A stretch of 64,000 bases of DNA from Methylophilus rhizosphaerae (GTDB lineage: Bacteria > Bacteroidota > Bacteroidia > Chitinophagales > Chitinophagaceae), in assembly GCA_943370285.1 (NCBI GenBank), contig CALRQJ020000001.1, positions 98,276-162,275 on the forward strand. Direction: 5' to 3'. A program made the position numbers and the translations under genes. Each line of letters begins with the position of its first letter. Position 1 is the first letter of the stretch. Shown here piece by piece: positions 19,645 to 62,849 of this stretch. The notes beneath the pieces are model-generated. The model did no database searches. It had not been told where the DNA came from and was given only the letters and a program-made list of their open reading frames with translations.

Positions 19645-19657
19645 GATTAACAATTGT

Positions 19658-26235: not shown

Positions 26236-26290
26236 AAATGCAGTCATCATTTTTGGCATCATTTTTTATAGAAAAAACAAAACACTTGTT

Positions 26291-26773: not shown

Positions 26774-26812
26774 TTACACATTCAGAAACAGTAGCCAATT
26801 ACTTAAAAACGT

Positions 26813-27688: not shown

Positions 27689-27736
27689 ATTTCTTTTTCT
27701 CTCCCATTTCAATTTTTCTTATCTTCCAAATCTGTC

Positions 27737-27881: not shown

Positions 27882-27899
27882 ACTTAAAACATCGCTTAT

Positions 27900-30518: not shown

Positions 30519-30591
30519 AAGCCGTTGATGGCTTAACCGAATGAGTTGAAATGGGCTACAGCAGGAGATTCTAAGAAATTGGCAAAAAAAT

Positions 30592-30623
30592 TTTGGCACT
30601 CCACTGCTCCACCCCTATTTTTG
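30592..30623 (+). promoter_or_regulatory. Bacteroidota-type promoter candidate for tRNA-Gln
   Basis: TTTG (30592-30595) is followed 20 nt later by TATTTTTG (30616-30623, fits TAnnTTTG), about 30 nt upstream of the tRNA. Confidence 0.4.
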
Positions 30624-32309
30624 CACTCCCAAAAGCAATTTTGGAACAAGGATTGGCCTATAGTATAATGGTAGTACGACAGATTTTGGTTCTGTTTGTC
30701 TTGGTTCGAATCCAGGTAGGCCAACACTACTACCAAAAAGACAACTTTTAAAAAGGTTGTCTTTTTGTTTTTCAGCCGAAACCATTGATTCTACTGCTAT
30801 TTCTTTAAAAATGGAATTGACTTTGGCGGTTCGAACTACCCCATTTTCTTTATCGTATAGCATACCTTCAGGAAATACCAGATATTGTAATCGCTGCTTG
30901 TCAAAAAAATCAGCTAAAACCCACATCTGACATATGTTTTCAGCGATTTCCAAGCCTTTACTTATGCTTTTTTTAAGGTTCGAACTCAAATTTTCATTTT
31001 GTGAATTTTCTTGCAGCATTTCATCGATTTGAGCTTGATACTTTTTTGTGAATTTGGCATATTGTTCTGCTGTAATTTCATTCAAGACAAATCTTTCTTC
31101 TAATGCATGAAGGGTATTTTGGAGTTCCCCAATACGTTTATTATTTGCTTTTTTATCTACAGGATTTTGTTCTAAAAGGGTTGATAGCTTAGCCTCCAGT
31201 TTTCTTTTTATAGTATCTTTTTGGGTATTATCATATTCAAAGTTGGAAAGAATAGCTAAAAATTGGCTATTCAATTTTTTAGCATTGATATTTACTTTAG
31301 AACCTTTGTCTCTTGACTTGTAATAGTATATCTTTTTCTTCTTGTTGTAATAACCTGTAAATGGACTTTTATTTACCAAATCCTTCATAAAGACTTTCAG
31401 TGCTAATTCATCTTGATTATTCATTTTAGCAATCCCACTTCGAGGATTTTGGCTTCCAATATTATTGGCTTGTAAAAAAGTCTTCTCATCAATCAAAGGA
31501 GGATGCATTCCGATATTGACTTCATCGGGCAAAATGGAGGCAACTACATACCCGCAGTAAAATGGATTTGCTAATATCCAAGCTATGTTACGCAGAGAAA
31601 CTTTAAGCCCTTTTGTCGCCAGTTTCTCAATGATTTGCTGATTAGACATCTTACCGGATGCTTTCCATTGGAACGCCTTTTTGATTAACAACCCCTTCTC
31701 ATTAATCACATAGACGTGTTTGTCTGCTGTGGAGTGCTTGTTTTGATTATCATATCCAAGTGGTGTGCTATACGGCCAAAATCCCTTTCTAAGCATTGAT
31801 TTTGTGCCCGATATACTCTTATCCCTTCGCATATCATTATCCAACTTACTGATTAACATGTAAAGGTTTTCTTGAAAGTTACCTGTAGGTGTTGATGAAT
31901 CAACTTCCTGCGTAATTGCAACTATACGTACGCCCAATTTGCGCAAGTTTTCTAAGAGAAATATTCCATTAGCTCCAGAACGGGAGAAGCGATCATAACT
32001 GTATACCAATATGCCTGCTACAGTTTTATCTTTTTCAATATCCTTTAGCATCCTCTGAAACTCCCTTCGCTCATCATTCTTTGCTGACTCATAAGTACCA
32101 CCATATTTACTCTTAATAATCAAGTTACTTTTCAAAGCAAATTCATCAATTCTTTCAAATTGCCAAACAAGACTATTACCGTTTATCATTTGATCTTTTG
32201 TTGAAACACGATCATATGAGTAAAATATGTTACTTGTTCTTTGGCTTACAATAGTACTTGTTTTAGATACATGCTTTTTGATGAGTTCTTGAACATTATC
32301 CCGTTTCAT
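30615..32309 (-). CDS. Large serine recombinase (resolvase/invertase N-domain plus recombinase domain plus coiled-coil)
   Basis: Catalytic-serine motif YDRVSTKDQ, resolvase core (ILVYSYDRFSRS) and a recombinase domain (GFWPYSTPLGY). The last ~52 codons are the antisense of the tRNA-Gln terminator and the tRNA itself. Confidence 0.85.
   Translation of the reverse strand: MKRDNVQELIKKHVSKTSTIVSQRTSNIFYSYDRVSTKDQMINGNSLVWQFERIDEFALKSNLIIKSKYGGTYESAKNDERREFQRMLKDIEKDKTVAGILVYSYDRFSRSGANGIFLLENLRKLGVRIVAITQEVDSSTPTGNFQENLYMLISKLDNDMRRDKSISGTKSMLRKGFWPYSTPLGYDNQNKHSTADKHVYVINEKGLLIKKAFQWKASGKMSNQQIIEKLATKGLKVSLRNIAWILANPFYCGYVVASILPDEVNIGMHPPLIDEKTFLQANNIGSQNPRSGIAKMNNQDELALKVFMKDLVNKSPFTGYYNKKKKIYYYKSRDKGSKVNINAKKLNSQFLAILSNFEYDNTQKDTIKRKLEAKLSTLLEQNPVDKKANNKRIGELQNTLHALEERFVLNEITAEQYAKFTKKYQAQIDEMLQENSQNENLSSNLKKSISKGLEIAENICQMWVLADFFDKQRLQYLVFPEGMLYDKENGVVRTAKVNSIFKEIAVESMVSAEKQKDNLFKSCLFGSSVGLPGFEPRQTEPKSVVLPLYYRPILVPKLLLGVQK
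30654..30724 (+). tRNA. tRNA-Gln (anticodon UUG)
   Basis: Cloverleaf folded by hand. Acceptor TGGCCTA/TAGGCCA. D-stem GTAT/GTAC. Anticodon stem ACAGA/TCTGT with loop TTTTGGT. T-arm CTTGG-TTCGAAT-CCAGG. Discriminator A. No encoded CCA. Confidence 0.9.
30735..30772 (+). terminator. Rho-independent terminator after tRNA-Gln
   Basis: AAAAAGACAAC (30735-30745) pairs with GTTGTCTTTTT (30756-30766), followed by GTTTTT. Confidence 0.6.
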
Positions 32310-32463
32310 TTGGTGTTTGATTTAAATTTTCCTGTAATAAAATCGCAATGATGATATCGCAAAACACATCGATTTGTTCTTCGAGTTGTAATTCATCAAT
32401 GTTTTTTTCTACTGTATTAATCGCATTGTTCTTGTCTTTTTTAGTTTTTTTTAATTCAGACAT
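32296..32463 (-). CDS. Unannotated 55-aa ORF overlapping the recombinase start
   Basis: Hand translation gives MSELKKTKKDKNNAINTVEKNIDELQLEEQIDVFCDIIIAILLQENLNQTPNETG. Its stop lies 14 nt inside the recombinase gene. It is below the ORF-track length cutoff. Confidence 0.25.
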   Translation of the reverse strand: MSELKKTKKDKNNAINTVEKNIDELQLEEQIDVFCDIIIAILLQENLNQTPNETG

Positions 32464-32548
32464 TTCAATTAAAGCAAAGTATCGTCATCTCAAATGAAGG
32501 ATACCTGATAATTAATTGTGCCGTCTCAAACGGAAACTAGTATTTATA

Positions 32549-33478
32549 TTAATTTACTTTTTTTATTCGTGTAAAGGATAGAATATTATTATCTCTGGTA
32601 TGTAAATCCACCGATTCATAGTTTTTGAGCCCCAATATTTCTTTTATCTTCTTTGAATCTGCTTCTGATAATATACCCGATTTTTCAGCTTTTATGTCCT
32701 GAATATCTCCTTGTTTACTATTCTTGGTAACGATTATCTTTTTAATATTACTTTTCCTAATCTGACGTATCACTTCTAATTCACTATCGTTGAAAACCCC
32801 TGTCTTACTTAAAAAAGTTTCAGCTTCCTCTTGAACAATGAATTTTTTGATAAAAGAACTAATTGGAAGTAGTATATGCGGAACAGATACGTTAACAATA
32901 TTTTTTGATGTAGCATAGTCATTAGTTGCCAACTCATAAGTGTCAAATTTTCCGTCTTCATAGATAATAATACCTACTTCATGATTATTAATAAAACATC
33001 TTAAAACAAGTTGAAAAAAGTAGGTAATATCTGCATCTGGAACAGACATCCTGATAGGGTCATTTAAAATTGTATTAATTGCTTCTAATAACCTGAATTC
33101 ATCATTATTCAATGGCCGTTGCTTAGCAATAGAAGTGAGTATAGCCGCATTTTCTTGCAAAGTTTTTTTGCCTAATCCGTCTTTATATGCTCTTATAAAC
33201 AAAAATTCATGAAGTGCTTTCATGAGATTAAGCGAACAGCCAAATTTTCTCATTGACTCTAAAGTGCACAGCCATAAGTATTCGACAAATGATAAACTTA
33301 TCCACTTACGTTCATTCACCACCGTATTCAGTAAGCCTGCCATCTTCCAAGCATGAAACGTTTTTATGTCAATCCCTGTTTCCCTCACAGTCATTATTCT
33401 ATCCAATAATTTACCCTGGCTTATAGCTAATTCGATACTGGTAGGGCCACTTAATTCTGATGGTTTTATTAAAATCAT
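32549..33478 (-). CDS. Hypothetical protein with an N-terminal MerR/excisionase-like HTH
   Basis: MTVRETGIDIKTFHAWKMAGLL resembles the MerR-type HTH pattern. The remaining ~260 aa are unrecognised. The start is set at the internal ATG (33478), which leaves an 80-bp divergent promoter region. Confidence 0.5.
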   Translation of the reverse strand: MILIKPSELSGPTSIELAISQGKLLDRIMTVRETGIDIKTFHAWKMAGLLNTVVNERKWISLSFVEYLWLCTLESMRKFGCSLNLMKALHEFLFIRAYKDGLGKKTLQENAAILTSIAKQRPLNNDEFRLLEAINTILNDPIRMSVPDADITYFFQLVLRCFINNHEVGIIIYEDGKFDTYELATNDYATSKNIVNVSVPHILLPISSFIKKFIVQEEAETFLSKTGVFNDSELEVIRQIRKSNIKKIIVTKNSKQGDIQDIKAEKSGILSEADSKKIKEILGLKNYESVDLHTRDNNILSFTRIKKVN

Positions 33479-33558
33479 TTTTAGATTGATTTTTTGATAG
33501 CTATTTTTATTAAATTTGCTATCACAAAGATAATCTATCAATTTCAAAAACAAAGCAA

Positions 33559-33984
33559 ATGAAGAAAAAAATCAAAAAATCAGATGCTAAGGGTTTAATA
33601 GGCCGTGAATTGCGATTCTGCGAATATTGTGGCGACCCTTTACCCTTATTATCTAAAATAACACGGAAACACTGTGAATATAGCGCAGTTAATGGCGTAA
33701 TAAAAGACTGCAAAACCGCAAAGGCAAGACAAAATGACAAAGAGGAAAGAGAATTTTTCCAAAAACTAAAGAGCACCATTAAAGAGATCGACGGCAGAAT
33801 TAGGAAGATGCTGATCGAAAAAGGAAACTTAGTTGACTTACAGGATTTAGAAGCTTATGACATTCACTTAAATAAAGCACTGCATCAAGATTTTAAAACG
33901 GATGGTCAGTTAATCTGTACTTATATCAACTACATTATTCATGGAAACCCGATTACCGAAAAATTTCAAATTAAACCATTATGA
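33559..33984 (+). CDS. Hypothetical Cys-rich (zinc-ribbon-like) protein
   Basis: 141 aa, basic N-terminus, CEYC...C...C cysteine pattern. No recognised family. Confidence 0.4.
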   Translation: MKKKIKKSDAKGLIGRELRFCEYCGDPLPLLSKITRKHCEYSAVNGVIKDCKTAKARQNDKEEREFFQKLKSTIKEIDGRIRKMLIEKGNLVDLQDLEAYDIHLNKALHQDFKTDGQLICTYINYIIHGNPITEKFQIKPL

Positions 33985-34283
33985 CAGAGAACGCTAAATT
34001 ATTGGCAACAATGAAACAACTCAATATGAGCAACCAATACAAGCAGCTTGCGTATGTTTGTATTGGCGTAACACTAACAGTATCATTAACTGCTATCGGC
34101 TTATATTATTACAATATAAATTTGAAAAAGAAATTCAAAGCTAAATCTGAGCGTGTCAGAGAAAGTTTTGCCGATATTACTAATAGTCAATTGGATGAAA
34201 TTTTAAAACTCAAACAGCAAATACGAGATATAAAACAACCAGATCGTGAAAAAACAAAAGATAATTCACCTAATCAAGAATAA
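33981..34283 (+). CDS. Hypothetical single-pass membrane / coiled-coil protein
   Basis: 100 aa. ATGA overlap with the upstream ORF. TM segment LAYVCIGVTLTVSLTAIGLYYY followed by a charged helical tail. Confidence 0.4.
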   Translation: MTENAKLLATMKQLNMSNQYKQLAYVCIGVTLTVSLTAIGLYYYNINLKKKFKAKSERVRESFADITNSQLDEILKLKQQIRDIKQPDREKTKDNSPNQE

Positions 34284-34628
34284 CTGAGCGTAAATATATT
34301 ACTCAGCTTGCTGCTTACAACAAGGGACATTGCTACGCAGTAATGTCTATACTTTAATCTGCCCTTTTTTTTCTAAATAAATTACTGACTAAGACACCAA
34401 AGGTTTTTTGCTCCTATTTCGTCTACTAAAATTGTACCCCAAGCCTAACCTAGTAGGTTTATACATGTCTCTATTTTAAATCATCTTTCAGCTGTAATCT
34501 TATTCCGTATAATTATGATGTATTAAGCTTTGCCTAATTATTTTTAAAAATATCATTTAACCTAGTATTTTAAAACTATCTCTAGTAAAAACTGGAAGAT
34601 GATTGAAATAAAATCGTCTCTAAATGGT

Positions 34629-34702
34629 TCACGTGAAATCTCGTTTAATCTCGTGATATCTCTCTATTTCACGAGAAATCTCCGTAATTCTCGAGAAATC
34701 AC
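34629..34702. repeat. Four iteron-like 14-bp repeats at exact 20-bp phasing
   Basis: TCACGTGAAATCTC (34629), TCTCGTGATATCTC (34649), TCACGAGAAATCTC (34669), TCTCGAGAAATCAC (34689). Consensus TCWCGWGAAATCTC. Confidence 0.8.
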
Positions 34703-35110
34703 GGTAAAAGAGGTAAAAAATTTTTGCTGAGATTCTATGTTTTTCTTGCACTGTCTACACGAATATTCCTCTTCCAAATGATGATTTATCTGTGTCGTAA
34801 TCGCGGATGATACGTTGAGGTATTTATCAATACCAAAAGGGTTTTTCAATTCCATTTGCGACCAGTGAAATAACGGATTGCGTACCAACTGTCGCATACT
34901 GCCCTGATTCCAATAAAAAATTATCGTGGCTGGATATTTTTGGAGAACATCTTTCTAGGGAACAGTTACGAAATGTTGATTAAAATTTACGGTTGAATTA
35001 TTTGTAACTGAAATTTCCACTTTATTTTCAACCTGTGCCAAAACAGTAAATGCAAAGAAATAAAATGACAGAAAAAAGATACTCTTTATGAATTTTATTT
35101 TAATCTTCAT
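34664..35110 (-). pseudogene. Decayed chimeric reading frame: DUF4861-like N-terminus (in-frame TAG) fused to an internal glucuronate isomerase (uxaC) fragment
   Basis: The hand translation MKIKIKFIKSIFFLSFYFFAFTVLAQVENKVEISVTNNSTVNFNQHFVTVP*KDVLQKY... parallels the N-terminus of the DUF4861 gene at 40432..41565. Downstream, RNPLFHWSQMELKNPFGIDKYL...EEYSCRQ matches the conserved UxaC block GNPLYHWTHLELRRPFGI...FSARG. Confidence 0.45.
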
Positions 35111-35116
35111 AATTTA

Positions 35117-36415
35117 TCAGTAATCAATCTTTTTTAATTTAGGAACCAGGAAATGCATAATGGCCCATGCCAGCAAATAAGCTAAACCACAAACAATAAA
35201 CATAATGAAATAGCCCGCATCCTTTTCGCCAATTGATTTGTAGTAATCAAATAATTTACCTGCGCCCCTGGCAAATAATATTCCGCCAATGGCGCCAAAC
35301 ATACCACCAATACCGGTAACAGATGCTGTTGCATTTTTTGGAAACATATCACTTACTGTAGTAAAAATATTTGAACTCCAGGCCTGGTGTGAGCCCATGG
35401 CACAACCTATTACAATAACTGCCAGCCACATGTTAAAGCTGCCTAGGTATTGTGCAAATAAAACCGGAAGAATACTGATGGCAAAAATCAGCATAGCTGT
35501 TTTACGGGCTTTAAAAACCGGCCAGCCTTTTTTAATAAACCACATGGGCAGCCATCCGCCAAATACACTGCCAATAGTGGATAATGTATAAGCCAATGCC
35601 AAAGGCAAAGATTTTGCAGTACCTAATAAACCATATTGTTTTTCTAAAAAATCGGGCAACCAGAAAAGATAAAACCACCAAACAGGGTCGGTTAAAAACT
35701 TACCAACCGCAAATGCCCAGGTTTGTTTATAGGTTAATAATTTGGTCCAGGATATAGTTTTAGTAACACCATGTTCATCTTGTTCATCTTCGGGATCGCT
35801 ATGGATAAAATCTAACTCTGCCTGTGATAATTTTTTATGTTTTTTAGGTACTTCATATAAAACAAACCAGAAAATCAACCAGATAAAACCAACCAAACCG
35901 GTTAAAATAAATGCCCACTTCCATCCCCATAATTCAGCGATAGCAGGTACGGTAAGAGGCGCTATAATGGCTCCAATATTTGCACCCGAATTGAAAATGC
36001 CTGTTGCAAAAGCTCGCTCTTTTTTGGGAAACCATTCTGCAGTTGTTTTAATAGCAGCAGGGAAATTACCCGATTCGGTAAAACCTAAAGCACCACGAGC
36101 AACCAAAAACCCAATTGTATTTGTAACAAAACCATGTGCAATAGCCGCTACACTCCACAAAGCGGTTGCCAACGCATAGCCTATCTTTGTACCAAGTTTA
36201 TCTATCAACCTTCCGGCACCTAAAAAACCAATTGCATAACAAATCTGAAAGGCAATAACAATATTGGCATAATCTGTTTCTGTCCAATTAAACTCCTTGG
36301 TTAGAGGCGACTTTAAAATGGCAATAACCGCCCTGTCGAGATAATTAATAGTGGTTGCAAAGAATACCATTGCGCAAATCGTCCACCTGTATTTTCCTAT
36401 AGCTTGCTGGTTCAT
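35117..36415 (-). CDS. exuT: MFS hexuronate transporter (ExuT-like)
   Basis: 432 aa, 12 TM segments. N-terminus ...YRWTICAMVFFATTINYLDRAVIAI typical of ExuT/ACS-family transporters. Sits in a uronate-catabolic context. Confidence 0.7.
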   Translation of the reverse strand: MNQQAIGKYRWTICAMVFFATTINYLDRAVIAILKSPLTKEFNWTETDYANIVIAFQICYAIGFLGAGRLIDKLGTKIGYALATALWSVAAIAHGFVTNTIGFLVARGALGFTESGNFPAAIKTTAEWFPKKERAFATGIFNSGANIGAIIAPLTVPAIAELWGWKWAFILTGLVGFIWLIFWFVLYEVPKKHKKLSQAELDFIHSDPEDEQDEHGVTKTISWTKLLTYKQTWAFAVGKFLTDPVWWFYLFWLPDFLEKQYGLLGTAKSLPLALAYTLSTIGSVFGGWLPMWFIKKGWPVFKARKTAMLIFAISILPVLFAQYLGSFNMWLAVIVIGCAMGSHQAWSSNIFTTVSDMFPKNATASVTGIGGMFGAIGGILFARGAGKLFDYYKSIGEKDAGYFIMFIVCGLAYLLAWAIMHFLVPKLKKIDY

Positions 36416-36421
36416 GTGGCT

Positions 36422-37087
36422 TTATTTTTTTATGGTTTTAATTATTTCCAACACTTTTATTGTTTCTGATTCTATTGTTGCAAAATCCCTGGCTTCCATT
36501 AATTTTTTACTGATGAGTTTGCTGCCCATACCTACTGCACAAACCCCGGCTTTAAACCAACCTTCAATATTTTCCCTGGTGGTATCTACGCCACCAGTTG
36601 GCATAAACAACAGTTTTGGAAAGATGTCCTTGATGCCACTCAAAAATTCGGGGCCAAGCATATTTCCAGGAAAAAGTTTTATGAATTTTACACCTGCATT
36701 TTCGGCAGCAATGATCTCAGATGGTGTCATACAACCCGGTGCATAAAAAATATCTTTGCCTACTGCATAGTCTGCTACTTCTTTCACGAACCCGGGACTC
36801 ACTAAGAAATCGGCACCTGCCAGCATATAATCTTCTGCCTGCTGCATGTTTTTTATTGTACCGACTCCAAGTAATAGGCCTGGCATTTCTTCATTTCTTA
36901 AAGCAACCATTTTTGTAAAATTCTTTAAAGCAGCTTCGCCCCTGTTGGTGTATTCAACCGCTTTTACACCAGCTTTATAAATAGCTTTTAAAACATCCAG
37001 GCTTATCGCTTCATCGGCATTAAAATATAATGGAAGCATTCCCTGCGCTATGATCGTATCTGATATTTGTTGTGTCTTACTCATCAA
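36422..37087 (-). CDS. eda: KDPG / 4-hydroxy-2-oxoglutarate aldolase
   Basis: 221 aa aldolase with FKLFPG and the PTGGV motif. Adjacent to kdgK. Confidence 0.8.
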   Translation of the reverse strand: MMSKTQQISDTIIAQGMLPLYFNADEAISLDVLKAIYKAGVKAVEYTNRGEAALKNFTKMVALRNEEMPGLLLGVGTIKNMQQAEDYMLAGADFLVSPGFVKEVADYAVGKDIFYAPGCMTPSEIIAAENAGVKFIKLFPGNMLGPEFLSGIKDIFPKLLFMPTGGVDTTRENIEGWFKAGVCAVGMGSKLISKKLMEARDFATIESETIKVLEIIKTIKK

Positions 37088-37088
37088 T

Positions 37089-37538
37089 TTATATTTTTAC
37101 TTTTATCACTAATTTTTTTATTTCCGCATCCCCAATCATTGGCGCATGAACATCTTCGGGAAAGAAAATGGCAAACTGGCCATCGGTTAATTGAAAATAC
37201 ATATCGGGTTGTTCATTGTATAGCTGAACATCTTTATCAGGATTATAACCGCCATTTTCTGTCAGGCATTTTTCTCTTGGCTTCCAGCCAAAGGTTTCAA
37301 GGCCGTTAATGCAAAGCTGAATGTCAATATGATTATTGTGACATTCAAATTTGGAAACAGATGCTTCTGCAGTCATTCCGGTTTTGTGTGAAAAGATGGC
37401 TTTTAATCCTTCTGATATATCTGATTTCCCATCGGGTTCATTTGCAATATCTGTTGCATTGATGAATTCAAATGCTTTTGCAAACAATGGATGAACAGAG
37501 AAATATTTTGGTGCGTTTTGAATGGTATCTACAATCAT
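37089..37538 (-). CDS. YhcH/YjgK/YiaL family (DUF386) protein
   Basis: 149 aa cupin-like protein with the typical start MIVDTIQNA..Y and a FECHNNHIDIQ motif. Confidence 0.7.
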   Translation of the reverse strand: MIVDTIQNAPKYFSVHPLFAKAFEFINATDIANEPDGKSDISEGLKAIFSHKTGMTAEASVSKFECHNNHIDIQLCINGLETFGWKPREKCLTENGGYNPDKDVQLYNEQPDMYFQLTDGQFAIFFPEDVHAPMIGDAEIKKLVIKVKI

Positions 37539-37629
37539 AAATCGTTACTTGGTGAATAGAATTATTACAGTACAAGAGTGCGACGTTAATGAAACTACAT
37601 AACAGCAATAAAGCCTGGTTCAAAAAAAA

Positions 37630-38655
37630 TTAACGTTGCACCCTTCCGCTTCCATCTCCCTTCATCAGGTCTTTTACATCGCTTAATGTAGCATGGTTTA
37701 AATCGCCGGGGATGGTATGTTTTAAAGCACTTGCCGCTACGCCAAACTCCGCAGCTTCTGACATTGGCATACCGGTTACCAGGCCATAAATTAAACCGCT
37801 TGCAAATGAATCGCCACTGCCAACACGATCTACAATGCGAACTTCATATTTCTTTGTATGATAAAAATCTGTACCATTGTACACCAGCGCACTCCAACCA
37901 TTATCACTGGCACTGTGGCTTTCTCTTAAAGAAGAAGCGATGTATTTAAAGCCAAACCTGTCCTTCATTTGTTTAAACACATCCTTAAAGCCATCCAGAT
38001 TTAATTCGCCTTTGGTAACATCGGTGTTAGCAGCTTTAAATCCTAAGCACAAATCCGCATCTTCTTCATTACCAATACAAACATCAACATGTTCGCAAAG
38101 CCTGGTCATTACTTCTCTTGCTTTTTCTTGGGTCCACAATTTTTTTCGGAAGTTCAGATCTATGCTGGTTGTAATGCCTTTTGCTTTGGCCGCTTTTAAA
38201 GCGGCTAAAGTAAGTGCCGCAGCTTTATCACTTAATGCAGGTGTAATGCCGGTAGTATGAAACCAGCTTGCCCCCTCAAGTATCTTATCAAAATCAAATT
38301 CGCTTGCATCAACCTCGGCAATAGAAGCACCGGCCCGGTCGTAAACTACCTGCGAGGCTCTCATGCTTGCGCCAGTTTCTAAAAAATATATTCCTAAACG
38401 ATCGCCGCCTCTTGCAATAAATTGCGTATCCACACCATACTTGCGCAAATGGTTGATGGCGGACTGGCCGATTGGATTGTTTGGCACTTTGCTTACAAAG
38501 GTTCCGTTCAATCCATAATTACACAATGCTGCTGATACATTGGCTTCCCCACCTCCGTATGTTATATCAAATGTGTCGGCCTGAACAAAACGTTTGAAAT
38601 CAGGCGTCGACAACCGCAACATGATCTCTCCAAGAGTTACTACTTTATTGCTCAT
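37630..38655 (-). CDS. kdgK: 2-dehydro-3-deoxygluconokinase (PfkB family)
   Basis: PfkB motifs (GGGEANV, DRVGSGDSFASG) and operon context. Confidence 0.8.
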   Translation of the reverse strand: MSNKVVTLGEIMLRLSTPDFKRFVQADTFDITYGGGEANVSAALCNYGLNGTFVSKVPNNPIGQSAINHLRKYGVDTQFIARGGDRLGIYFLETGASMRASQVVYDRAGASIAEVDASEFDFDKILEGASWFHTTGITPALSDKAAALTLAALKAAKAKGITTSIDLNFRKKLWTQEKAREVMTRLCEHVDVCIGNEEDADLCLGFKAANTDVTKGELNLDGFKDVFKQMKDRFGFKYIASSLRESHSASDNGWSALVYNGTDFYHTKKYEVRIVDRVGSGDSFASGLIYGLVTGMPMSEAAEFGVAASALKHTIPGDLNHATLSDVKDLMKGDGSGRVQR

Positions 38656-38680
38656 TTTTGTTTTTATTTTTTTATTATAA

Positions 38681-39511
38681 TTATTTTAAGGAAGCTATTG
38701 GCTGCGGATCCATATCAGTAAATTCTTTATTCTCGCCAGCCATGCCCCAGATGAATCCGTAATTTGCTGTGCCTACACCAAAATGCATACTCCATGGTGC
38801 GGAAATTGCGGCTTCATGATTGGCAACTATCAGGTGCCTGGTTTCCTGGGGCTCACCCATAAAGTGCATTACCCGTTGTGTTGCATCCACATCAAAATAA
38901 AAATAGGCTTCCATGCGGCGGGTATGCGTATGTGGCGGAACAGAATTCCAAACACTGCCTTCATCTAAAGTGGTTAAACCCATTACCAACTGGCAGCTTT
39001 GAATACCATCGTTGTGAATGTATTTGTATATGGTTCTTTTATTTGATGTAGGGATATCACCCAGGTTTACTGGTGCAGCTTCAGCTTTTGTCATTTTTTT
39101 GTTAGGGTAAGACTGATGCGCAGGAACAGATAACATATAAAAATGAGCCGGTGTATCTGCTGCATTGCTGCTGAAACTCACATCTTTTGTGCCTTTGCCC
39201 AAATACACACATTCCAGTTTATCCATTTCATAAACAACGCCATCGGCAGTTACTGTACCTTTGCCCCCCACATTAATGATGCCCATTTCTCTCCTTTCCA
39301 AAAAGAAAATAGCTTTTAGTTCGTCTTCATTTGGCAGGCTGATAGCTGCTGAAGTTGGTACAGCACCTCCAATAATTAAACGGTCGAAATGAGAATAAAC
39401 CAATTCAATTTTACCGGCCTGCATTAGATTTTGTACTAGGAAATTTTCACGCAGTTGCTGCGTATTCATTTGGCTCGTTTCTTTGGGACTGTTTTGAAAT
39501 CTTATTTGCAT
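38681..39511 (-). CDS. kduI: 5-dehydro-4-deoxy-D-glucuronate isomerase
   Basis: 276 aa cupin with a KduI-type N-terminus (...TQQLRENFLVQNLM...GKIELVYSHFDR). Adjacent to kduD. Confidence 0.85.
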   Translation of the reverse strand: MQIRFQNSPKETSQMNTQQLRENFLVQNLMQAGKIELVYSHFDRLIIGGAVPTSAAISLPNEDELKAIFFLERREMGIINVGGKGTVTADGVVYEMDKLECVYLGKGTKDVSFSSNAADTPAHFYMLSVPAHQSYPNKKMTKAEAAPVNLGDIPTSNKRTIYKYIHNDGIQSCQLVMGLTTLDEGSVWNSVPPHTHTRRMEAYFYFDVDATQRVMHFMGEPQETRHLIVANHEAAISAPWSMHFGVGTANYGFIWGMAGENKEFTDMDPQPIASLK

Positions 39512-39546
39512 TTATATAAGTTTTGAGTATTGAGAAACAAGTTATA

Positions 39547-40308
39547 CTATCTACCCATCCATCCACCATCAACAGTTATGATAGTTCCGTTGATATAGTC
39601 TGATGCAGGTGAAGAAAGAAATACGTAAGCACCGGCTAAGTCAGAAGTTTCGCCCCAGCGTGCAGCTGGAATTCTTGAGAGGATAGCAGCGCTTCTATCA
39701 GCATCTGCACGTAAAGCAGTTGTATTGTTTGTTGCAATATAACCAGGAGCAACACCATTTACGGTAATGCCGTGTGGTGCCCACTCATTGGCAAATGCTT
39801 TTAATAAAGAAGCTACAGCGCCTTTACTGGCAGCATATCCAGGCACATTAATACCGCCCTGGAAACTTAACAAAGAGCAGGTAAACACTATCTTACCATA
39901 TTTTTGTTCAAGCATCCGTTTTCCCAACTCCCTTGTTATGATAAATTGAGCATCGAGGTTTATATTGATTATAAGATCCCAAAATTCATCAGAATGAGTT
40001 GCTGCAGGCTCTCTCATAATATGCCCTGCATTATTGATAATAATGTCAATACGGGGATGGTCTGATTTTACTTTATTTAAGAAAGCATATATAGATTTCC
40101 TGTTGGAAAAATCAGCTACATAAGGATAGAATTTTTTTCCTGCAGCTTCCACTGCTTTAGACACTTCTGAGCCCGATTCAGGCATATTATTGGATACTCC
40201 TAGAATGTCAGCACCGGATTGTGCAAGTTCAATTGCTATTGCCATACCTATGCCACTGCTGCATCCTGTTACTAAGGCAATTTTGTTATCCACTCTGAAA
40301 TTTAACAT
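39547..40308 (-). CDS. kduD: 2-dehydro-3-deoxy-D-gluconate 5-dehydrogenase (SDR)
   Basis: SDR with TGCSSGIG and YAASKGA motifs. Paired with kduI. Confidence 0.8.
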   Translation of the reverse strand: MLNFRVDNKIALVTGCSSGIGMAIAIELAQSGADILGVSNNMPESGSEVSKAVEAAGKKFYPYVADFSNRKSIYAFLNKVKSDHPRIDIIINNAGHIMREPAATHSDEFWDLIININLDAQFIITRELGKRMLEQKYGKIVFTCSLLSFQGGINVPGYAASKGAVASLLKAFANEWAPHGITVNGVAPGYIATNNTTALRADADRSAAILSRIPAARWGETSDLAGAYVFLSSPASDYINGTIITVDGGWMGR

Positions 40309-40431
40309 GTTTGTAGTTTTGATTATTAATCTGATTTACAATAAGTATAAAAAAAGAAGGCCAGCAGATATGTGAGAACCACCTATATCAACTCCAATAA
40401 AAATTTTATTTCTGTCATTCATATTTATTTT

Positions 40432-41565
40432 TTACTTGTATAATATTTCCAGTTGATTCTGTAATTGCAATTTGTATTTATACAACCATGCAAACCATAT
40501 TTCATCATTCCTTACAATGCCCTCCTTATCCCAGCATGCACCGGCATAATACGTAAAAGGAATGCCTCTGACTGCTTTACTGTTCATGAGCAATTGGTTA
40601 AAACTGACTCTTATTTTAGAAGAGCTGTTTGCAATAATAGCCGTGCCAGTGGTACCATATTTCGGATGTGTTGGCTCCCAATAACCTAATATGCCTTTTT
40701 GTTCATGTAATAGCATTACCCCGGGTTCTTTTCTTGTTACAATACCTATCACCACAGGCAGCGTATCTAAAGTTGCACTGTTATACTCTACTGTTATTTT
40801 ATTCAACCAACTGCCTGCATCAAGGCTGATGGTTTTTACAGACGATACTAAATGCCCACTTATATTAACGGCATCGTAATTCAAACTAAATGTAATACGC
40901 AACGGTCCATGGTCTAATATTTTCCAAGAACTGAAATTGCCGGGATACCAGACTGAGTCTTTGAAATAGGGGGCTATATTTCCTGCTCCCAACGTATTTC
41001 CAACACTGTAATAGTCCAGTCCATCACCATGATCATCATGATAATCGTTCTTCAGGTAACGGTCATTTATCACTAACTTATTGGTCCTTTTTACCCAAAC
41101 ATCAATGCCATGAGCATTTTCGTTTGTTGTTTCCAAAGCCTTCCCATACATCCTGAATGCAATATGGTCATTTTCCCAGGCAAAATCATCTTTACGCTCG
41201 GGCACAAATCTTCCAAATACTTTTGATTGAACCGGCTTTCTTTTTCGGTTTATTACTTGCAGATGTATACTTTTCATCGCAGAAACGTCTACCTGCGTTA
41301 ATAAACTTTGTATCTGCCCTTTCCCCAGCGTTTCAAACTGAACAGGCAATTCATTCCCTGTCCGACTATCGAGAATTGCAAATAAACCGGTATCGGTAAT
41401 ATTAAAACGATCTGAAAATTGCTGCCATGGAATATTTATCACTTTGCCAACCATTGCAACCGGAGCATTATTAGTAACAACAATCATCCTAGCTTTGACG
41501 GCCTGTGCATGAATCATTGTTTCAGTTTGTAAAATGCCTAGTAGTAGAATTAGATTTTTCAACAT
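40432..41565 (-). CDS. DUF4861-like secreted protein
   Basis: Signal peptide. FAWENDHIAFRMYGKALE...GIDVWVKR motif as I recall it for DUF4861. Typical neighbour of kduI/kduD in Bacteroidota. Confidence 0.5.
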   Translation of the reverse strand: MLKNLILLLGILQTETMIHAQAVKARMIVVTNNAPVAMVGKVINIPWQQFSDRFNITDTGLFAILDSRTGNELPVQFETLGKGQIQSLLTQVDVSAMKSIHLQVINRKRKPVQSKVFGRFVPERKDDFAWENDHIAFRMYGKALETTNENAHGIDVWVKRTNKLVINDRYLKNDYHDDHGDGLDYYSVGNTLGAGNIAPYFKDSVWYPGNFSSWKILDHGPLRITFSLNYDAVNISGHLVSSVKTISLDAGSWLNKITVEYNSATLDTLPVVIGIVTRKEPGVMLLHEQKGILGYWEPTHPKYGTTGTAIIANSSSKIRVSFNQLLMNSKAVRGIPFTYYAGACWDKEGIVRNDEIWFAWLYKYKLQLQNQLEILYK

Positions 41566-41576
41566 TTTTTTAGCCT

Positions 41577-42791
41577 TTATTTTTTTAAAAATCCACCAGC
41601 ATTTTGCAACAATTCATCAAAATACTTCATAACGTAGCTTTTCGAGCCATCCTGCCTGATGAGCCAAAAGCCATTCATTTCCTGATTTGATTTAGCTGTT
41701 TCCGGGTAATTGATCTTTTTTCCATTAGCCGGTTCGTTGCAATACAATTCCCATTGAATAAAATAGGGTACTTTTTGGGCAAGGCATACTGCAAAATATG
41801 TATCCCATCTTTCCCTAAACTCTGCCGGAACGTTTTTAGTATTCATTTCCGGTATTCCTATCTCGCCCAGAAAAACAACATTATCTTTCATGTAAGGAGT
41901 ACGTTTCATTTTAGACTTCACAAAATCAATCCCTTTAAATAAGTCTAAACCAGTTTTATCAAAATCGGTTGCATCATACGCCGACCAGGATACCATATCT
42001 ACTTCTACAAAAGGTAAAACATGTGTGGTAACGGATGGAATACCATACATGGCATCGATTACTTTATTTACTTCGATAGCATGGTACACGCTACATTTAG
42101 AGTTAGGCAACTGTTTCCTTGCACGGTTTACTCCATCCTGCCTTGCTTTAAAAACTGCCTGCATACTTTTAAACCGTTTGTCTATATCTGCTGGTGGCTC
42201 TACTCTACCCCATTGGGCATCCCATCCCACACCGCCACGTACAATCCAGTCAGCTTCCCAGTTTTCAAGAATAAAATCCACTTTGCGGTTTTGATATTGT
42301 TGTAACAAGTATAAAGAGAGTTCATAATATTCCTGCTCTTCCCTCTCAAGACCTGCATCATCAGCATCAAGCATTTTAACTTGATTGGCACTGGTACTTA
42401 GCACAAAGGTTGAAAACGACATGGCAAATACCTCTTTGAATTGTGGATGTTCCGCCATTTGTTTTAGCGTAATGGCGTTCTTCATACTTGTATCAGAATT
42501 ATAAGCATACCCTGTCTGCTTTTTATAAAACCATAGTTTGCATACGCCTAAACCCAGCTCATTGAGCTTAGTGCAACCTTCGACCAGGTAAGGTTTATCA
42601 GTAAAATAGTATTTGCCTCCAACATGAGTGGCTCCCAAAATATCCCTCACATTCCCGGGGATCTTAGCTCCTTTGGAGGGTTTGTACTTTTCAATGACCG
42701 ATAAAATGGCCGCATCATTTGTTTGTGCTGAAAGAAAGATACTTATCCCGAAAAGCAAAAAAAACGATATGAAGAACCTGATATTTTTCAT
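41577..42791 (-). CDS. Uncharacterised secreted protein, possible clan GH-A-like TIM-barrel glycosidase
   Basis: Signal peptide. Candidate catalytic contexts FILENWEADW and VFLGEIGIPE. Its ATG overlaps the GH3 stop (TAATG). Confidence 0.35.
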   Translation of the reverse strand: MKNIRFFISFFLLFGISIFLSAQTNDAAILSVIEKYKPSKGAKIPGNVRDILGATHVGGKYYFTDKPYLVEGCTKLNELGLGVCKLWFYKKQTGYAYNSDTSMKNAITLKQMAEHPQFKEVFAMSFSTFVLSTSANQVKMLDADDAGLEREEQEYYELSLYLLQQYQNRKVDFILENWEADWIVRGGVGWDAQWGRVEPPADIDKRFKSMQAVFKARQDGVNRARKQLPNSKCSVYHAIEVNKVIDAMYGIPSVTTHVLPFVEVDMVSWSAYDATDFDKTGLDLFKGIDFVKSKMKRTPYMKDNVVFLGEIGIPEMNTKNVPAEFRERWDTYFAVCLAQKVPYFIQWELYCNEPANGKKINYPETAKSNQEMNGFWLIRQDGSKSYVMKYFDELLQNAGGFLKK

Positions 42792-44995: not shown

Positions 44996-45030
44996 TAACT
45001 TGTTTTTATAAATTATAGAATACCAATTTA

Positions 45031-47811: not shown

Positions 47812-47894
47812 TCCAGTTAAAAGAAATTCGTTATAACAATTATGCTTTGAAAACACACTTTAAAATACCAAATCCTTAGCCTAAGTTTATGCTT

Positions 47895-49235: not shown

Positions 49236-49416
49236 TTTGGTAAATATTTCTGCTATTTTGTAATTGATTCTTAAATATCAAAATCAAGATTTCGATTATA
49301 CACTTTTATATTTCGGAACAACATTTTACTTCTAACCATGCAGCGTATCGATCTACATCCGAAATTATAGACAGCTCCAATGACCCAATTTCTAAATGTG
49401 TACCCATTTTCCAGCT

Positions 49417-50460: not shown

Positions 50461-50490
50461 TTCAGGATTTTTTTAAATCGATTTTTTCAA

Positions 50491-51783: not shown

Positions 51784-51787
51784 TTTT

Positions 51788-54658: not shown

Positions 54659-54695
54659 AACGTGTATTTAAAATGCTTGTATAGAAATATTAATT

Positions 54696-56666: not shown

Positions 56667-56683
56667 ATTGCTTTAGCGCTTGT

Positions 56684-58639: not shown

Positions 58640-58643
58640 TTTT

Positions 58644-60449: not shown

Positions 60450-60454
60450 ATTTA

Positions 60455-61978: not shown

Positions 61979-62081
61979 ATGTATACAATTAGTTCTTTTG
62001 ATGTTGTTTGATTTCAGTGTTACTTATCAAGCTGCTTGTTTTTTAATTAGAGAAATGATTACGACAATAGAATTAATTATT

Positions 62082-62617: not shown

Positions 62618-62849
62618 TCATTTAATTTTTTTATTCCCTTGCGTTGTTGCTCCATTTAAAGGTTGATTTGTATATATCTTTTATTAACTGATTGTTTAAA
62701 GCAGGGATCAATGATTTATTCTTTTACCTGCTTTTGAAATTGATAAAAAGTGAAACAGCACAATCAAGTTACAGAAAGTACTTAAAGTAAATTTTACCAT
62801 ATTGATATAATATCAAAACAAAATAAATGCATATGATTATATTTTAATT

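What the first reader, a model, noticed from the sequence alone, without database searches (positions are those of the whole stretch)
30725..34745. Compact AT-rich element next to tRNA-Gln: a large serine recombinase plus a set of unrecognisable genes
Immediately after an intact tRNA-Gln and its terminator, the gene content switches from housekeeping to about 4 kb of visibly AT-richer DNA. It encodes a large serine recombinase, a 55-aa overlapping ORF, a MerR-like HTH protein with a ~260-aa unknown domain, and a divergent pair of coupled small ORFs (Cys-rich, then TM/coiled-coil). It also has 345 bp of ORF-free palindrome-rich DNA and a phased repeat array. The far side abuts decayed host genes. 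I see no relaxase, replication, capsid or known defence gene. The element is therefore either a minimal integrative element or satellite, or a carrier of an uncharacterised 3-4 gene module. tRNA-adjacent islands normally use tyrosine integrases, so a serine-recombinase element at this position is uncommon.
Basis: partly seen in the sequence, partly recalled or inferred. Interest (0 to 1): 0.7.

Follow-up and report, generated by a model that had tools for sequence, protein, structure and literature searches.

The report
Serine-recombinase island docked on tRNA-Gln
The 4-kb AT-rich stretch is the docking module (a large serine recombinase plus two conserved partner genes of unknown function) of a mobile genomic island inserted exactly at the 3' end of tRNA-Gln, and it appears to carry the neighbouring sugar-utilisation genes; it belongs to a large, apparently undescribed family of tRNA-targeting serine-recombinase islands in freshwater Bacteroidota.

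Summary
Window 30726-34763 has the lowest GC of any 4-kb stretch in the window (0.326 vs 0.377). It encodes a full-length large serine recombinase (LSR), an overlapping 55-aa ORF, a 309-aa protein with a MerR-like N-terminus, two small divergent ORFs, and four TCWCGWGA motifs spaced exactly 20 bp apart.

New findings:
1. The junction lies at the last base of tRNA-Gln (crossover dinucleotide AC, 30724-30725). The "tRNA terminator" is supplied by the element and lies inside the last codons of the LSR ORF. That ORF has no stop codon of its own and reads antisense through the tRNA.
2. A sister species has an empty tRNA-Gln site. It carries the same module plus the same exuT/kdgK/GH3 genes at tRNA-Pro(ggg). 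This genome's tRNA-Pro(ggg) site is empty. The unit that moved is therefore the module plus at least 13 kb, probably more than 33 kb, of polysaccharide-utilisation genes.
3. The trio 309 aa / ~55 aa / LSR recurs in more than 40 metagenomic loci, always abutting a tRNA 3' end (Pro, Gln, Met, Arg) and with varied cargo.

The island's far end (attR) was not reached. The functions of the 309-aa and 55-aa proteins are inferred, not shown.

The parts
30654..30724 (+). tRNA-Gln(ttg). It is intact and entirely host-derived. Its T-arm and acceptor 3' strand form the left (B) half of the attachment site.
   Evidence: ARAGORN and Rfam RF00005 at 65 bits. It is identical up to the junction in the empty-site sister locus L140.
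30724..30725 (.). Inferred crossover dinucleotide AC: the tRNA discriminator base A plus the next base.
   Evidence: Empty attB-Gln in L140 reads GGCCA|AC|AAAAATTTCCCGC. The occupied window site reads GGCCA|AC|ACTACTACC. Empty attB-Pro in L143/L144 reads CCCG|AC|TTGTTATC. The occupied sister site L094 reads CCCG|AC|ACTATTACC. AC is the only sequence shared by all four.
30726..30772 (.). Island left end (P' arm, ACTACTACC...). It carries a hairpin at 30734-30767 followed by a T-run. This acts as a replacement terminator for the tRNA, is bidirectional, and overlaps the last ~12 conserved LSR codons.
   Evidence: Terminator scan. RNAfold gives -16.8 kcal/mol, z = -6.0. An equivalent hairpin is present at all 23 LSR/tRNA junctions examined, across 4 LSR clades, with different stem sequences and compensatory changes (GACAAC/GTTGTC vs GGCAAT/ATTGCC). 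The native terminator in the empty site is a different hairpin.
30615..32309 (-). Large serine recombinase ORF, 564 aa. The catalytic motif is YDRVST (Ser36). The conserved core ends at ...CLFGSSVG (about 30720). The remaining 35 codons are antisense tRNA-Gln plus upstream host DNA.
   Evidence: The tail, residues 516-564, has pLDDT below 50. dN/dS against the sister copy is 0.13.
32296..32463 (-). orf55, a small acidic/amphipathic protein whose gene overlaps the LSR start by 14 nt. It is a candidate LSR accessory or directionality factor (inferred).
   Evidence: A 43-57-aa ORF occupies the same position in every module examined, and its sequence changes with the LSR clade. No family hit. dN/dS against the sister is 1.2 over 53 codons, and the sister copy is truncated to 47 aa.
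32549..33478 (-). orf309, a conserved partner of the LSR. It has an N-terminal MerR-like winged helix, then a helical region, then a poorly modelled C-terminal domain. Function unknown; proposed DNA-binding regulator or architectural factor.
   Evidence: No Pfam, PHROG, NCBIfam, PADLOC or PDB sequence hit. AF2 pLDDT is 74, and only residues ~1-75 match GlnR/TnrA/NmlR (rmsd 2-2.5 A, prob 0.95-0.98, E 0.1-1). It is followed by an LSR in every locus where the contig continues far enough downstream. The family has 1321 50%-identity clusters at E<=1e-3. dN/dS is 0.12.
33479..33558 (.). Divergent intergenic region between orf309 and orf141. It contains the dyad TGATAGC-N16-GCTATCA (33495-33524), a possible operator.
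   Evidence: Read directly from the sequence. Function is inferred only.
33559..33984 (+). orf141, a Cys-rich (CxxC...C...C) N-terminus followed by a helical protein. Lineage-specific; function unknown.
   Evidence: No significant family or PDB hit. Present only in the sister island (88% aa) among the loci searched. dN/dS is 0.15.
33981..34283 (+). orf100, with one predicted TM segment plus a coiled coil, coupled to orf141 by a 4-nt overlap. Its status as a gene is uncertain.
   Evidence: dN/dS against the sister is 0.90. No family hit.
34284..34763 (.). A 480-bp non-coding stretch ending at the module boundary. It contains four TCWCGWGA motifs at exact 20-bp spacing (34629-34696).
   Evidence: The motifs are conserved in the sister island, while the region overall is 85% identical. 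Homology to the sister stops at 34763 and resumes at 34932. No inverted-repeat or tRNA-like att arm was detected here.
34754..34894 (-). Internal fragment of glucuronate isomerase uxaC (profile positions 93-142 of 464), a decayed gene inside the island.
   Evidence: Pfam PF02614 at 2.7e-7. The corresponding 392 nt in the sister are unrelated.
34932..43693 (-). Cargo shown to travel with the module: exuT-type MFS, KDPG aldolase, DUF386, kdgK, kduI, short-chain dehydrogenase, DUF4861, a 404-aa protein, and GH3.
   Evidence: This region is 88-91% identical and collinear with the sister locus L094, where it is linked to tRNA-Pro rather than tRNA-Gln.
43694..64000 (-). Probable further cargo (not verified): polysaccharide lyase 8, sugar MFS, GH10, acetyl-xylan esterase, GH2, SASA esterase, DUF4962, sulfatase, and a response-regulator/AraC gene.
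   Evidence: Pfam. The native tRNA-Gln downstream flank (DUF2520 gene etc., L140 12828-22619) is absent from the whole window, so the insertion extends beyond 64000.

Best explanation
Window 30726-34763 is the tRNA-proximal integration and control module of a large genomic island.

Proposed mechanism:
- The island inserts by large-serine-recombinase (LSR) site-specific recombination exactly at the 3' end of a tRNA gene. The 2-bp crossover is AC, made of the discriminator base and the next base.
- The tRNA stays entirely host-encoded. Its native terminator is displaced to the island's far end. The island supplies a new hairpin terminator, which also encodes the last conserved residues of the LSR.
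- The LSR ORF has no stop codon of its own, so in the integrated state it runs on into antisense tRNA.
- The LSR probably reads the conserved T-arm (GTTCRAATC...G.....CC.AC) as one half-site. That would explain how near-identical islands sit at tRNA-Gln here, at tRNA-Pro(ggg) in the sister species, and at tRNA-Pro(tgg), Met or Arg elsewhere.
- The ~55-aa ORF, translationally coupled to the LSR and co-varying with the LSR clade, is the best candidate for a directionality or accessory factor.
- The 309-aa MerR-like protein is most likely a DNA-binding regulator or architectural protein of the module. Candidate sites are the 33495-33524 dyad and the 20-bp-phased TCWCGWGA array.
- The island's cargo here is the adjacent uronate/xylan/sulfated-polysaccharide utilisation cluster. 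At least 13 kb is demonstrated to travel with the module, and the total probably exceeds 33 kb.

Shown: junction position, empty sites, co-movement of module and cargo, LSR identity, and conservation of the trio and the hairpin.
Inferred: the AC crossover, T-arm recognition, the roles of orf55 and orf309, and the island's size and far end.
For: 1. LSR identity rests on Pfam, PHROG and NCBIfam hits, the catalytic YDRVST motif, and a full-length fold match to Bxb1, PhiC31, LI and other serine integrases at E down to 4e-17.
2. Empty tRNA-Gln site: sister genome L140 is 95.4-95.9% identical to window 18447-30726 and diverges exactly after ...GGCCAACA into a native terminator and a DUF2520 gene. 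L141 is the same.
3. Reciprocal occupancy:
   - The sister carries the same module (91.4% nt over window 30702-34763) plus the same exuT-to-GH3 genes next to tRNA-Pro(ggg)/OsmC.
   - This genome's own tRNA-Pro(ggg)/OsmC locus (L143, from the same sequencing run) is empty and has a native terminator.
   - Neither displaced flank lies within the window or L094. A simple inversion would have joined tRNA-Pro to the tRNA-Gln downstream flank, which is not seen.
4. Second independent case: L112 and L132 are 97.3% identical over 11.8 kb (three sulfatases, a GH, a 153-aa ORF, 309, 55, LSR) up to the tRNA end. They are flanked by tRNA-Pro(tgg)-tRNA-Ser-dnaA and by tRNA-Pro(ggg)-DHOase respectively.
5. 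Family-wide features:
   - All 309-aa homologues with readable downstream sequence are followed by an LSR of one of three clades (29-80% identity).
   - Wherever a tRNA is called, the LSR 3' end overlaps its 3' end.
   - In tandem islands in L082, the inner island is 10 kb with AbiE and helicase cargo, and its far arm mimics the tRNA 3' end at 8 of 11 consensus positions.
6. Hairpin plus T-run is present at all 23 junctions, z = -4.2 to -8.5, with clade-specific stems.
7. Purifying selection acts on the LSR, orf309 and orf141.
8. tRNA-Gln and tRNA-Pro(ggg) of this genome share the 14-nt T-arm TGGTTCGAATCCAG but not the acceptor strand.
Against: - Island size, and the claim that the whole sugar-utilisation cluster is cargo, therefore rest on the reciprocal-site argument.
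- No mobility or transfer gene occurs in the 29 kb to the right.
- Only the 4-kb module is compositionally distinct. The putative cargo has host-like GC.
- The module has a sharp right boundary shared with the sister (34763), followed by unrelated DNA in the two genomes. That could mark the true end of a small element.
- No significant P arm (inverted repeat of P', or tRNA mimic) was found at any module boundary or in visible cargo.
- orf55 shows relaxed constraint and is truncated in the sister, and orf100 looks neutral.
- The fold evidence for the MerR-like domain is weak (E 0.1-1).
- No experiment shows activity.
Confidence: 0.65

Rival explanations
1. A self-contained ~4-kb LSR element (30726-34763), has its own right end at 34763. 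On this view the neighbouring sugar-utilisation region is a separate entity. It would be either a decayed, integrase-less island mobilised in cis (accretion: element + CIME-like partner excised through the outer sites) or DNA carried along by LSR recombination with a distant pseudo-site.
For: - The compositional break is confined to 4 kb.
- The right boundary is identical in the window and the sister, followed by 168 vs 392 nt of unrelated DNA.
- In several clade-II loci, pairwise homology covers only ~3.3-3.4 kb, from ~495 nt upstream of the 309 gene to the tRNA.
- Tandem arrays do occur (L082).
Against: - No att-like arm is detectable at 34763 or at other module boundaries.
- The one island whose far end is defined (L082 inner island) is 10 kb with cargo between the module and its tRNA-like far arm.
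- In two independent pairs the cargo moves with the module. Short pairwise homology is equally expected for a conserved module with variable cargo.
Confidence: 0.2
2. The module is an immobilised or domesticated remnant. The different tRNA linkage in the two species would come from ordinary chromosomal rearrangements (multi-step inversions or translocations, or homologous recombination between element copies), not from LSR-mediated movement of an island.
For: - The module has been inherited since the split from the sister species. LSR dS is 0.18, similar to the ~4-5% divergence of core flanks.
- There is decay nearby (uxaC fragment; orf55 truncated in the sister).
- No far end was seen.
Against: - In four loci the breakpoints fall on the same dinucleotide at the tRNA 3' end.
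- Both alternative sites are intact with native terminators rather than hybrid joints.
- The LSR, orf309 and orf141 are under purifying selection.
- The same pattern recurs in unrelated metagenomic genomes.
Confidence: 0.1
3. A phage satellite, cryptic prophage remnant or novel defence cassette whose unknown genes (orf309, orf141, orf100, orf55) are the payload.
For: The genes are unannotatable. Related islands can carry AbiE, helicase or RM genes.
Against: - No capsid, terminase, primase or known defence hit.
- No relative of orf309 in 2.9 million viral contigs or in plasmids.
- Phage LSRs are at most 30% identical.
- orf309 and orf55 are linked to the recombinase whatever the cargo, which fits a recombination or regulation role rather than a payload.
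Confidence: 0.04

Closest known systems
Phage and ICE large serine integrases (PhiC31, Bxb1, TP901-1, Listeria A118/LI)
   Same: Same enzyme architecture (catalytic domain, recombinase domain, ribbon domain with embedded coiled coil), shown by a full-length fold match and Pfam. Same simple att logic with an inferred 2-bp crossover. A small partner protein could play the RDF role, as small phage RDFs do (own knowledge).
   Different: - The target is the extreme 3' end of tRNA genes, leaving the gene intact, rather than a site inside a protein-coding gene.
- Closely related enzymes use several different tRNAs.
- The ribbon domain has no Cys ligands.
- The ORF has no stop codon of its own.
- A conserved 309-aa partner has no counterpart in the known systems.
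- Sequence identity to phage LSRs is at most 30%.
SCCmec-type cassettes (CcrAB/CcrC serine recombinases at the 3' end of rlmH)
   Same: A non-conjugative cargo island is moved by large serine recombinase(s) into the 3' end of a conserved housekeeping gene without inactivating it. NCBIfam gives weak similarity to CcrB and CcrC, far below cut-off. Tandem or composite arrays occur.
   Different: A different recombinase clade (scores 74 and 32 bits against a cut-off of 900). The target is a tRNA rather than rlmH. The hosts are Bacteroidota. The cargo is catabolic (CAZymes, sulfatases) or defence genes. The accessory genes differ.
tRNA-targeting islands with tyrosine integrases (P4-like islands, Bacteroides NBU1/NBU2, most tycheposons)
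   Same: Same ecological logic: dock on a conserved tRNA gene, keep it functional, allow tandem accretion, and carry variable cargo. A minority (27 of 937) of the Prochlorococcus integrative elements catalogued with the tycheposons carry an LSR (bioRxiv 10.1101/2020.12.28.424599).
   Different: Tyrosine-integrase islands duplicate a 15-50-bp piece of the tRNA 3' part and cross over inside the gene. Here nothing of the tRNA is duplicated. The junction is after the discriminator base and only the terminator is replaced. The enzyme chemistry is unrelated. The review PMC5704250 states that serine-recombinase IMEs integrate within genes.
Integration-dependent control in mycobacteriophages (attP inside the 3' end of the repressor gene; own knowledge of Broussard et al. 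2013)
   Same: The attachment site lies at the 3' end of an ORF. The encoded C-terminus therefore differs between the integrated and excised states.
   Different: Here the ORF is the recombinase itself, and the enzyme is a serine rather than a tyrosine recombinase. No functional consequence is shown. The tail is predicted disordered, and its effect is pure conjecture.
MerR-family transcription regulators and excisionase-type winged helices
   Same: The first ~75 residues of the orf309 model superpose on GlnR, TnrA, NmlR and CueR DNA-binding domains.
   Different: No Pfam MerR or HTH_17 hit. The remaining ~230 residues have no structural or sequence relative. The protein is not a family member by any curated threshold.

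Membership tests
Large serine recombinase (serine integrase) | N-terminal resolvase-type catalytic domain with a nucleophilic serine | tested here: met
   PF00239 at 6e-22, residues 30-176. Motif YDRVST, with R34, V35 and S36 invariant across 30 homologues. PDB TP901-1 Int catalytic domain at 7e-9.
Large serine recombinase (serine integrase) | C-terminal recombinase domain plus ribbon domain with an embedded coiled coil | tested here: met
   PF07508 at 3e-9. The AF2 model shows a beta-ribbon at 308-332 and long helices at 343-457. It aligns over 536-564 columns to 9dxh, 9dxd, 9iu2, 9rah and 4kis.
Large serine recombinase (serine integrase) | Four Cys zinc ligands in the ribbon domain (PF13408) | tested here: not met
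   No PF13408 hit and no Cys in residues ~300-345. The L009-type LSR at the same tRNA has CPKC...HCSSSC. This is a variant feature and does not exclude membership at fold level.
Large serine recombinase (serine integrase) | Simple att sites exchanging at a 2-bp crossover, with no duplication of target sequence | tested here: inconclusive
   Two empty/occupied site pairs share only AC at the junction. attR and attP were not recovered, so the exchange point is inferred from one side only.
Large serine recombinase (serine integrase) | Directionality set by a recombination directionality factor | not testable with these tools
   orf55 is a positional and co-variation candidate only.
Integrative genomic island | Empty-site allele in close relatives, with the breakpoint at the att site | tested here: met
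   L140 (95-96% nt) and L141 are empty at tRNA-Gln. This genome is empty at tRNA-Pro(ggg), while the sister is occupied there.
Integrative genomic island | Both ends (attL and attR) defined | tested here: inconclusive
   attL is defined at 30724-30725. attR is not within the window and could not be fetched.
Integrative conjugative or mobilisable element (ICE/IME) | Relaxase, oriT, or type IV secretion / Bacteroidetes Tra genes | tested here: not met
   None found in 30.7-64 kb. The part of the island beyond 64000 is unseen. A different LSR clade (L009) lies next to genes that resemble Bacteroidetes conjugation (Tra) genes, judged by eye from the translations and not tested against any library.
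Phage satellite / prophage | Capsid, terminase, primase or other phage genes; presence in viral collections | tested here: not met
   PHROGs returns only the integrase. No orf309 relative in IMG/VR. Phage LSRs are below 30% identity.
MerR family regulator (for orf309) | MerR HTH domain above the curated threshold, plus a dimerisation helix and effector domain | tested here: not met
   No Pfam or NCBIfam hit. There is only a weak fold match of ~70 N-terminal residues (E 0.1-1).
Known anti-phage defence systems | Match to a PADLOC model | tested here: not met
   No significant hit. The best is LeoC at E 0.048 for orf100.

The most novel reading that the evidence does not exclude
These serine integrases may read the universally conserved tRNA T-arm as one half of their attachment site. 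That would let one enzyme lineage hop between different tRNA genes (Gln, Pro-ggg, Pro-tgg, others) while carrying tens of kilobases of catabolic or defence cargo.

The recombinase gene has no stop codon of its own. Its C-terminal tail, and the terminator embedded in its last codons, are rewritten by integration and excision. With the clade-matched ~55-aa protein and the 309-aa DNA-binding partner, this could act as a built-in sensor of the integrated versus excised state. If so, this would be a directionality and regulation scheme not described for serine integrases.
Probability: 0.2. Interest if true: 0.8.

Novelty: new variant of a known kind. Interest (0 to 1): 0.6.

Why it matters
- Ecology: the family would be a major, unannotated route by which freshwater Bacteroidota (Chitinophagaceae and relatives) exchange polysaccharide-utilisation, sulfatase and defence gene clusters without visible conjugation genes. 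The 309-aa partner family alone has more than 1300 clusters at 50% identity and no database model.
- Mechanism: the family shows serine integrases solving the "safe harbour" problem in the way tyrosine integrases do, by docking on tRNA genes. The solution differs, though. The crossover falls one base past the gene, nothing is duplicated, and the element brings its own terminator.
- Tool-building: integrases whose natural target includes the near-universal T-arm, and which tolerate different acceptor stems, could provide landing sites present in almost any genome.

Tried and rejected
1. Empty site among 80 GTDB species loci found with cphA. Synteny is too weak. This search did reveal a second LSR clade at the same tRNA-Gln.
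2. Exact-protein look-ups of the window's LSR, exuT and cphA returned only the same genome.
3. Simple reciprocal inversion between the tRNA-Gln and tRNA-Pro junctions. Rejected because this genome's tRNA-Pro is followed by its own native-looking flank, not by the tRNA-Gln flank.
4. Crossover inside the tRNA, with the element supplying the tRNA 3' part as tyrosine integrases do. Rejected because each tRNA keeps its own acceptor 3' strand next to near-identical elements.
5. Search for a P arm as an inverted repeat of P' near module boundaries. Best matches were 12-15 of 26, z 1.9-3.2, and not unique.
6. Strict scan for tRNA-like arms in visible cargo found none.
7. Reaching attR through the DUF2520 and esterase orthologues of this genome. 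One protein is not on record and the other sits on a 3.9-kb contig that stops inside DUF2520.
8. Whether the sister's 392-nt segment is also uxaC: no Pfam hit for its ORFs.
9. Sigma-70 promoter scan found no more sites than shuffled sequence (19 found vs 20.1 expected), and Bacteroidota promoters differ.
10. Rfam found nothing but the tRNA.
11. Literature: no paper in the held library describes serine recombinases targeting tRNA 3' ends in Bacteroidota or linked to polysaccharide-utilisation loci. Absence from this library is not proof of absence.

Full report
**What is in the sequence**

tRNA-Gln(ttg) occupies 30654-30724. From 30726 to 34763 the GC content is 0.326. This is the lowest of any 4-kb stretch in the window (mean 0.377, sd 0.018).

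The genes in this stretch are as follows.
- On the minus strand: a 564-aa ORF (30615-32309), a 55-aa ORF overlapping its start by 14 nt (32296-32463), and a 309-aa ORF (32549-33478).
- Diverging from these on the plus strand: a 141-aa Cys-rich ORF (33559-33984) and a 100-aa TM/coiled-coil ORF (33981-34283).
- Then 480 bp without ORFs. This stretch holds four TCWCGWGA motifs spaced exactly 20 bp apart (34629-34689). Only one other copy exists in 64 kb, and no shuffle of 100 reaches five copies.
- Then a 50-codon internal fragment of uxaC and an intact exuT-type transporter gene.

**The recombinase**

The 564-aa protein is a full-length large serine recombinase (LSR).
- It hits Pfam Resolvase and Recombinase, the PHROG integrase family at 5e-52, and gives sub-threshold XisF and CcrB similarities.
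- It carries the catalytic YDRVST motif, invariant across 30 homologues.
- It matches the TP901-1 catalytic domain in PDB.
- Its AF2 model (pLDDT 78) aligns over its whole length to recent serine-integrase synaptic structures, Bxb1, PhiC31 and LI integrase, with E down to 4e-17.
- Its ribbon domain has no cysteines.

**The junction**

The hairpin-plus-T-run at 30734-30767 looks like the tRNA's terminator. In fact it lies inside the LSR ORF and encodes the conserved ...KQKDNLFKSCLFG. The ORF then continues, with no stop, through antisense tRNA-Gln (VGLPGFEPRQTEPKSVVLPLYYRPI...) to 30615.

About 970 homologues exist. Those examined end with the same ...CLFGSxVG and then read into the antisense strand of different tRNAs. 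tRNA-Pro(ggg) was confirmed by ARAGORN in L081, L089 and L090. At least three other tRNA-like tails are also seen. The tail, residues 516-564, is predicted disordered.

**Empty sites and movement**

A 90%-identical orf309 led to a sister species (L094-L096).
- There, the same module (91.4% nt over window 30702-34763) and the same right-hand genes (exuT 95% aa, kdgK 94%; 88-91% nt to at least window 43693) are present.
- The left neighbour, however, is tRNA-Pro(ggg)/OsmC rather than tRNA-Gln/cphA.
- Each tRNA keeps its own acceptor 3' strand, and homology begins at the discriminator base.

Cluster members of cphA then gave the sister's cphA locus (L140, from the same metagenome as L094).
- It is 95.4-95.9% identical to window 18447-30726.
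- It diverges exactly after ...GGCCAACA into a native terminator (AAAATTTCCCGCTAACAGCGGGATTTTTTTT), followed by DUF2520, esterase and topA genes.
- A more distant relative, L141, is the same.

Conversely, this genome's own OsmC/tRNA-Pro(ggg) locus is empty. L143 comes from the same sequencing run as the window genome and is 96.5% identical to the sister. It reads ...CGTCCCGAC|TTGTTATC..., followed by native hairpins.

The only sequence common to the two empty and two occupied junctions is AC, which is therefore the likely crossover dinucleotide.

Neither displaced flank occurs in the window (to 64000) or in the 12.7 kb of L094 beyond the module. A reciprocal inversion would have joined tRNA-Pro to the tRNA-Gln flank, and that is not seen. 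The simplest reading is that the module and its right-hand genes move as one island. The island would be longer than 33 kb here.

The rest of the window encodes a polysaccharide-utilisation cluster: lyase 8, GH3, GH10, GH2, acetyl-xylan and SASA esterases, a sulfatase, transporters and a response regulator. It contains no mobility genes.

**A second case and the family**

L112 and L132 are 97.3% identical over 11.8 kb. The shared region holds three sulfatases, a melibiase-like GH, a 153-aa ORF, the 309-aa gene, the 55-aa ORF and the LSR. Identity runs up to the tRNA end and then stops. L112 continues with tRNA-Pro(tgg)-tRNA-Ser-dnaA, and L132 with tRNA-Pro(ggg)-DHOase.

A metagenome scan with the orf309 alignment gave 43 loci, mostly from lakes.
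- Every orf309 homologue with readable downstream sequence is followed by a 43-57-aa ORF and an LSR.
- The LSR belongs to one of three clades: about 70-80%, 41% or 29% identical to the window's.
- Wherever a tRNA is called (Pro, Arg, Met), the LSR 3' end overlaps its 3' end.
- The small ORF's sequence changes with the LSR clade, whereas orf309 stays about 50% identical.

A fourth LSR clade (L009 type, with a Cys4 ribbon) occupies the same position after tRNA-Gln in about 10 of the 80 cphA loci. In L009 it is followed by genes that look like Bacteroidetes conjugation genes, judged by eye from the translations and not tested against any library.

All 23 junctions examined carry a strong hairpin plus T-run directly after the tRNA (z = -4.2 to -8.5). 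The stems are clade-specific, and there are compensatory changes within the window's clade.

In L082 two islands lie in tandem. The inner one is 10 kb and carries a small serine recombinase, AbiEi/AbiEii and an AEP-TOTE/SNF2 helicase. Its far arm (GGACTCAAATGCAGTAGATCCA|AC) matches the tRNA-arm consensus GTTC.AATC..G.....CC.AC at 8 of 11 positions. This is the only far end seen. It suggests that the enzyme reads a T-arm-like motif on both partners.

**The unknown genes**

orf309:
- It has no hit in Pfam, PHROGs, NCBIfam, PADLOC or PDB sequences.
- Its AF2 model (pLDDT 74, good for residues 1-185) matches MerR-type winged helices (GlnR, TnrA, NmlR) over only the first ~70 residues.
- Its family is large: 1321 clusters at 50% identity with E<=1e-3.
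- It is absent from viral contigs and plasmids.

Against the sister copy, orf309, orf141 and the LSR are under purifying selection (dN/dS 0.12-0.15). orf55 (1.2 over 53 codons, truncated in the sister) and orf100 (0.9) are not.

I infer that the small ORF is the LSR-specific accessory or directionality factor. I infer that orf309 is a DNA-binding regulator or architectural protein. Neither role is shown.

**Weak points**

- attR was not reached.
- The module's right boundary at 34763 is shared with the sister and followed by unrelated DNA. This keeps a small-element-plus-accretion model alive.
- No att-like arm was detected at that boundary or in any visible cargo.
- The putative cargo has host-like composition.

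**Comparison and verdict**

By every testable criterion except the Cys4 ligands, the enzyme is a member of the large serine recombinases.

The system works like an SCC-type or phage-type serine-integrase island, but with the target logic of tyrosine-integrase tRNA islands. It differs from those islands in crossing over one base beyond the gene and in duplicating nothing.

Reviews state that serine-recombinase elements integrate within genes (PMC5704250). Only 27 of 937 Prochlorococcus integrative elements catalogued with the tycheposons carry an LSR. I found no description of this Bacteroidota family in the held library.

I rate it a new variant of a known kind, with interest 0.6.

Noticed in passing
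L123, L124, L126, L106, L113, L108, L116, L136 (e.g. L123 11773-11950): In many tRNA-Met-associated modules the LSR end abuts only the 3' ~45 nt of tRNA-Met (from the anticodon loop). This fragment is preceded by a conserved ~130-nt block (GCGTGAGGAAAACACCCCCTGAATTCGG...). It looks like the end of a second, tyrosine-type element that later integrated into the same tRNA and displaced its 3' part together with the LSR island.
   Followed up: partly
L009 12549-22319; also L032, L036, L041, L046, L053, L062, L071, L072, L078 just after tRNA-Gln: A different LSR clade (27% identity, with a Cys4 zinc ribbon) sits at the same position after the cphA-linked tRNA-Gln in about 10 of 80 Chitinophagaceae genomes. 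In L009 it is followed by genes that look like Bacteroidetes conjugation (Tra) genes, judged by eye from the translations and not tested against any library. This tRNA-Gln is therefore a hotspot for serine-recombinase elements.
   Followed up: partly
window 30615-30772 (and LSR C-termini P0001-P0045): LSR ORFs of this family have no stop codon of their own. The stop lies in antisense tRNA or beyond, so the tail depends on the integration site. A bidirectional terminator hairpin sits within the last ~12 codons, so transcripts ending there would lack a stop codon.
   Followed up: partly
window 31270-31410 (LSR residues ~300-345): The ribbon ('zinc-ribbon') domain of this LSR clade contains no cysteines, although the predicted fold still aligns with zinc-binding serine integrases.
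   Followed up: partly
window 34629-34696: Four TCWCGWGA motifs lie at exactly 20-bp intervals (two helical turns). They sit 70-135 bp from the module boundary and are conserved in the sister island. The binding protein and role (operator, origin, partition or transfer site) are unknown.
   Followed up: partly
L082 11531-21617 (also L083-L088): Two LSR modules in tandem. The inner 10-kb island carries a small serine recombinase, AbiEi/AbiEii and a ~1000-aa AEP-TOTE/SNF2-type helicase, probably a defence cargo.
   Followed up: no
window 37089-37538: The DUF386/YhcH gene between the aldolase and kdgK genes is present here but missing from the otherwise collinear sister locus L094. In addition, uxaC is reduced to a 50-codon fragment, so the hexuronate pathway encoded here looks incomplete.
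   Followed up: no
L140 9294-9749 vs window 27688-27900: The sister genome has an extra 151-aa ORF between the OmpA-like gene and cphA that is absent from the window.
   Followed up: no
window 31-44 kb vs L094: Divergence from the sister is very uneven along the island (76-96% per kb; dS 0.18 for the LSR, 0.37 for orf309 and exuT, 1.07 for kdgK). This suggests recombination or mosaicism within the island.
   Followed up: partly
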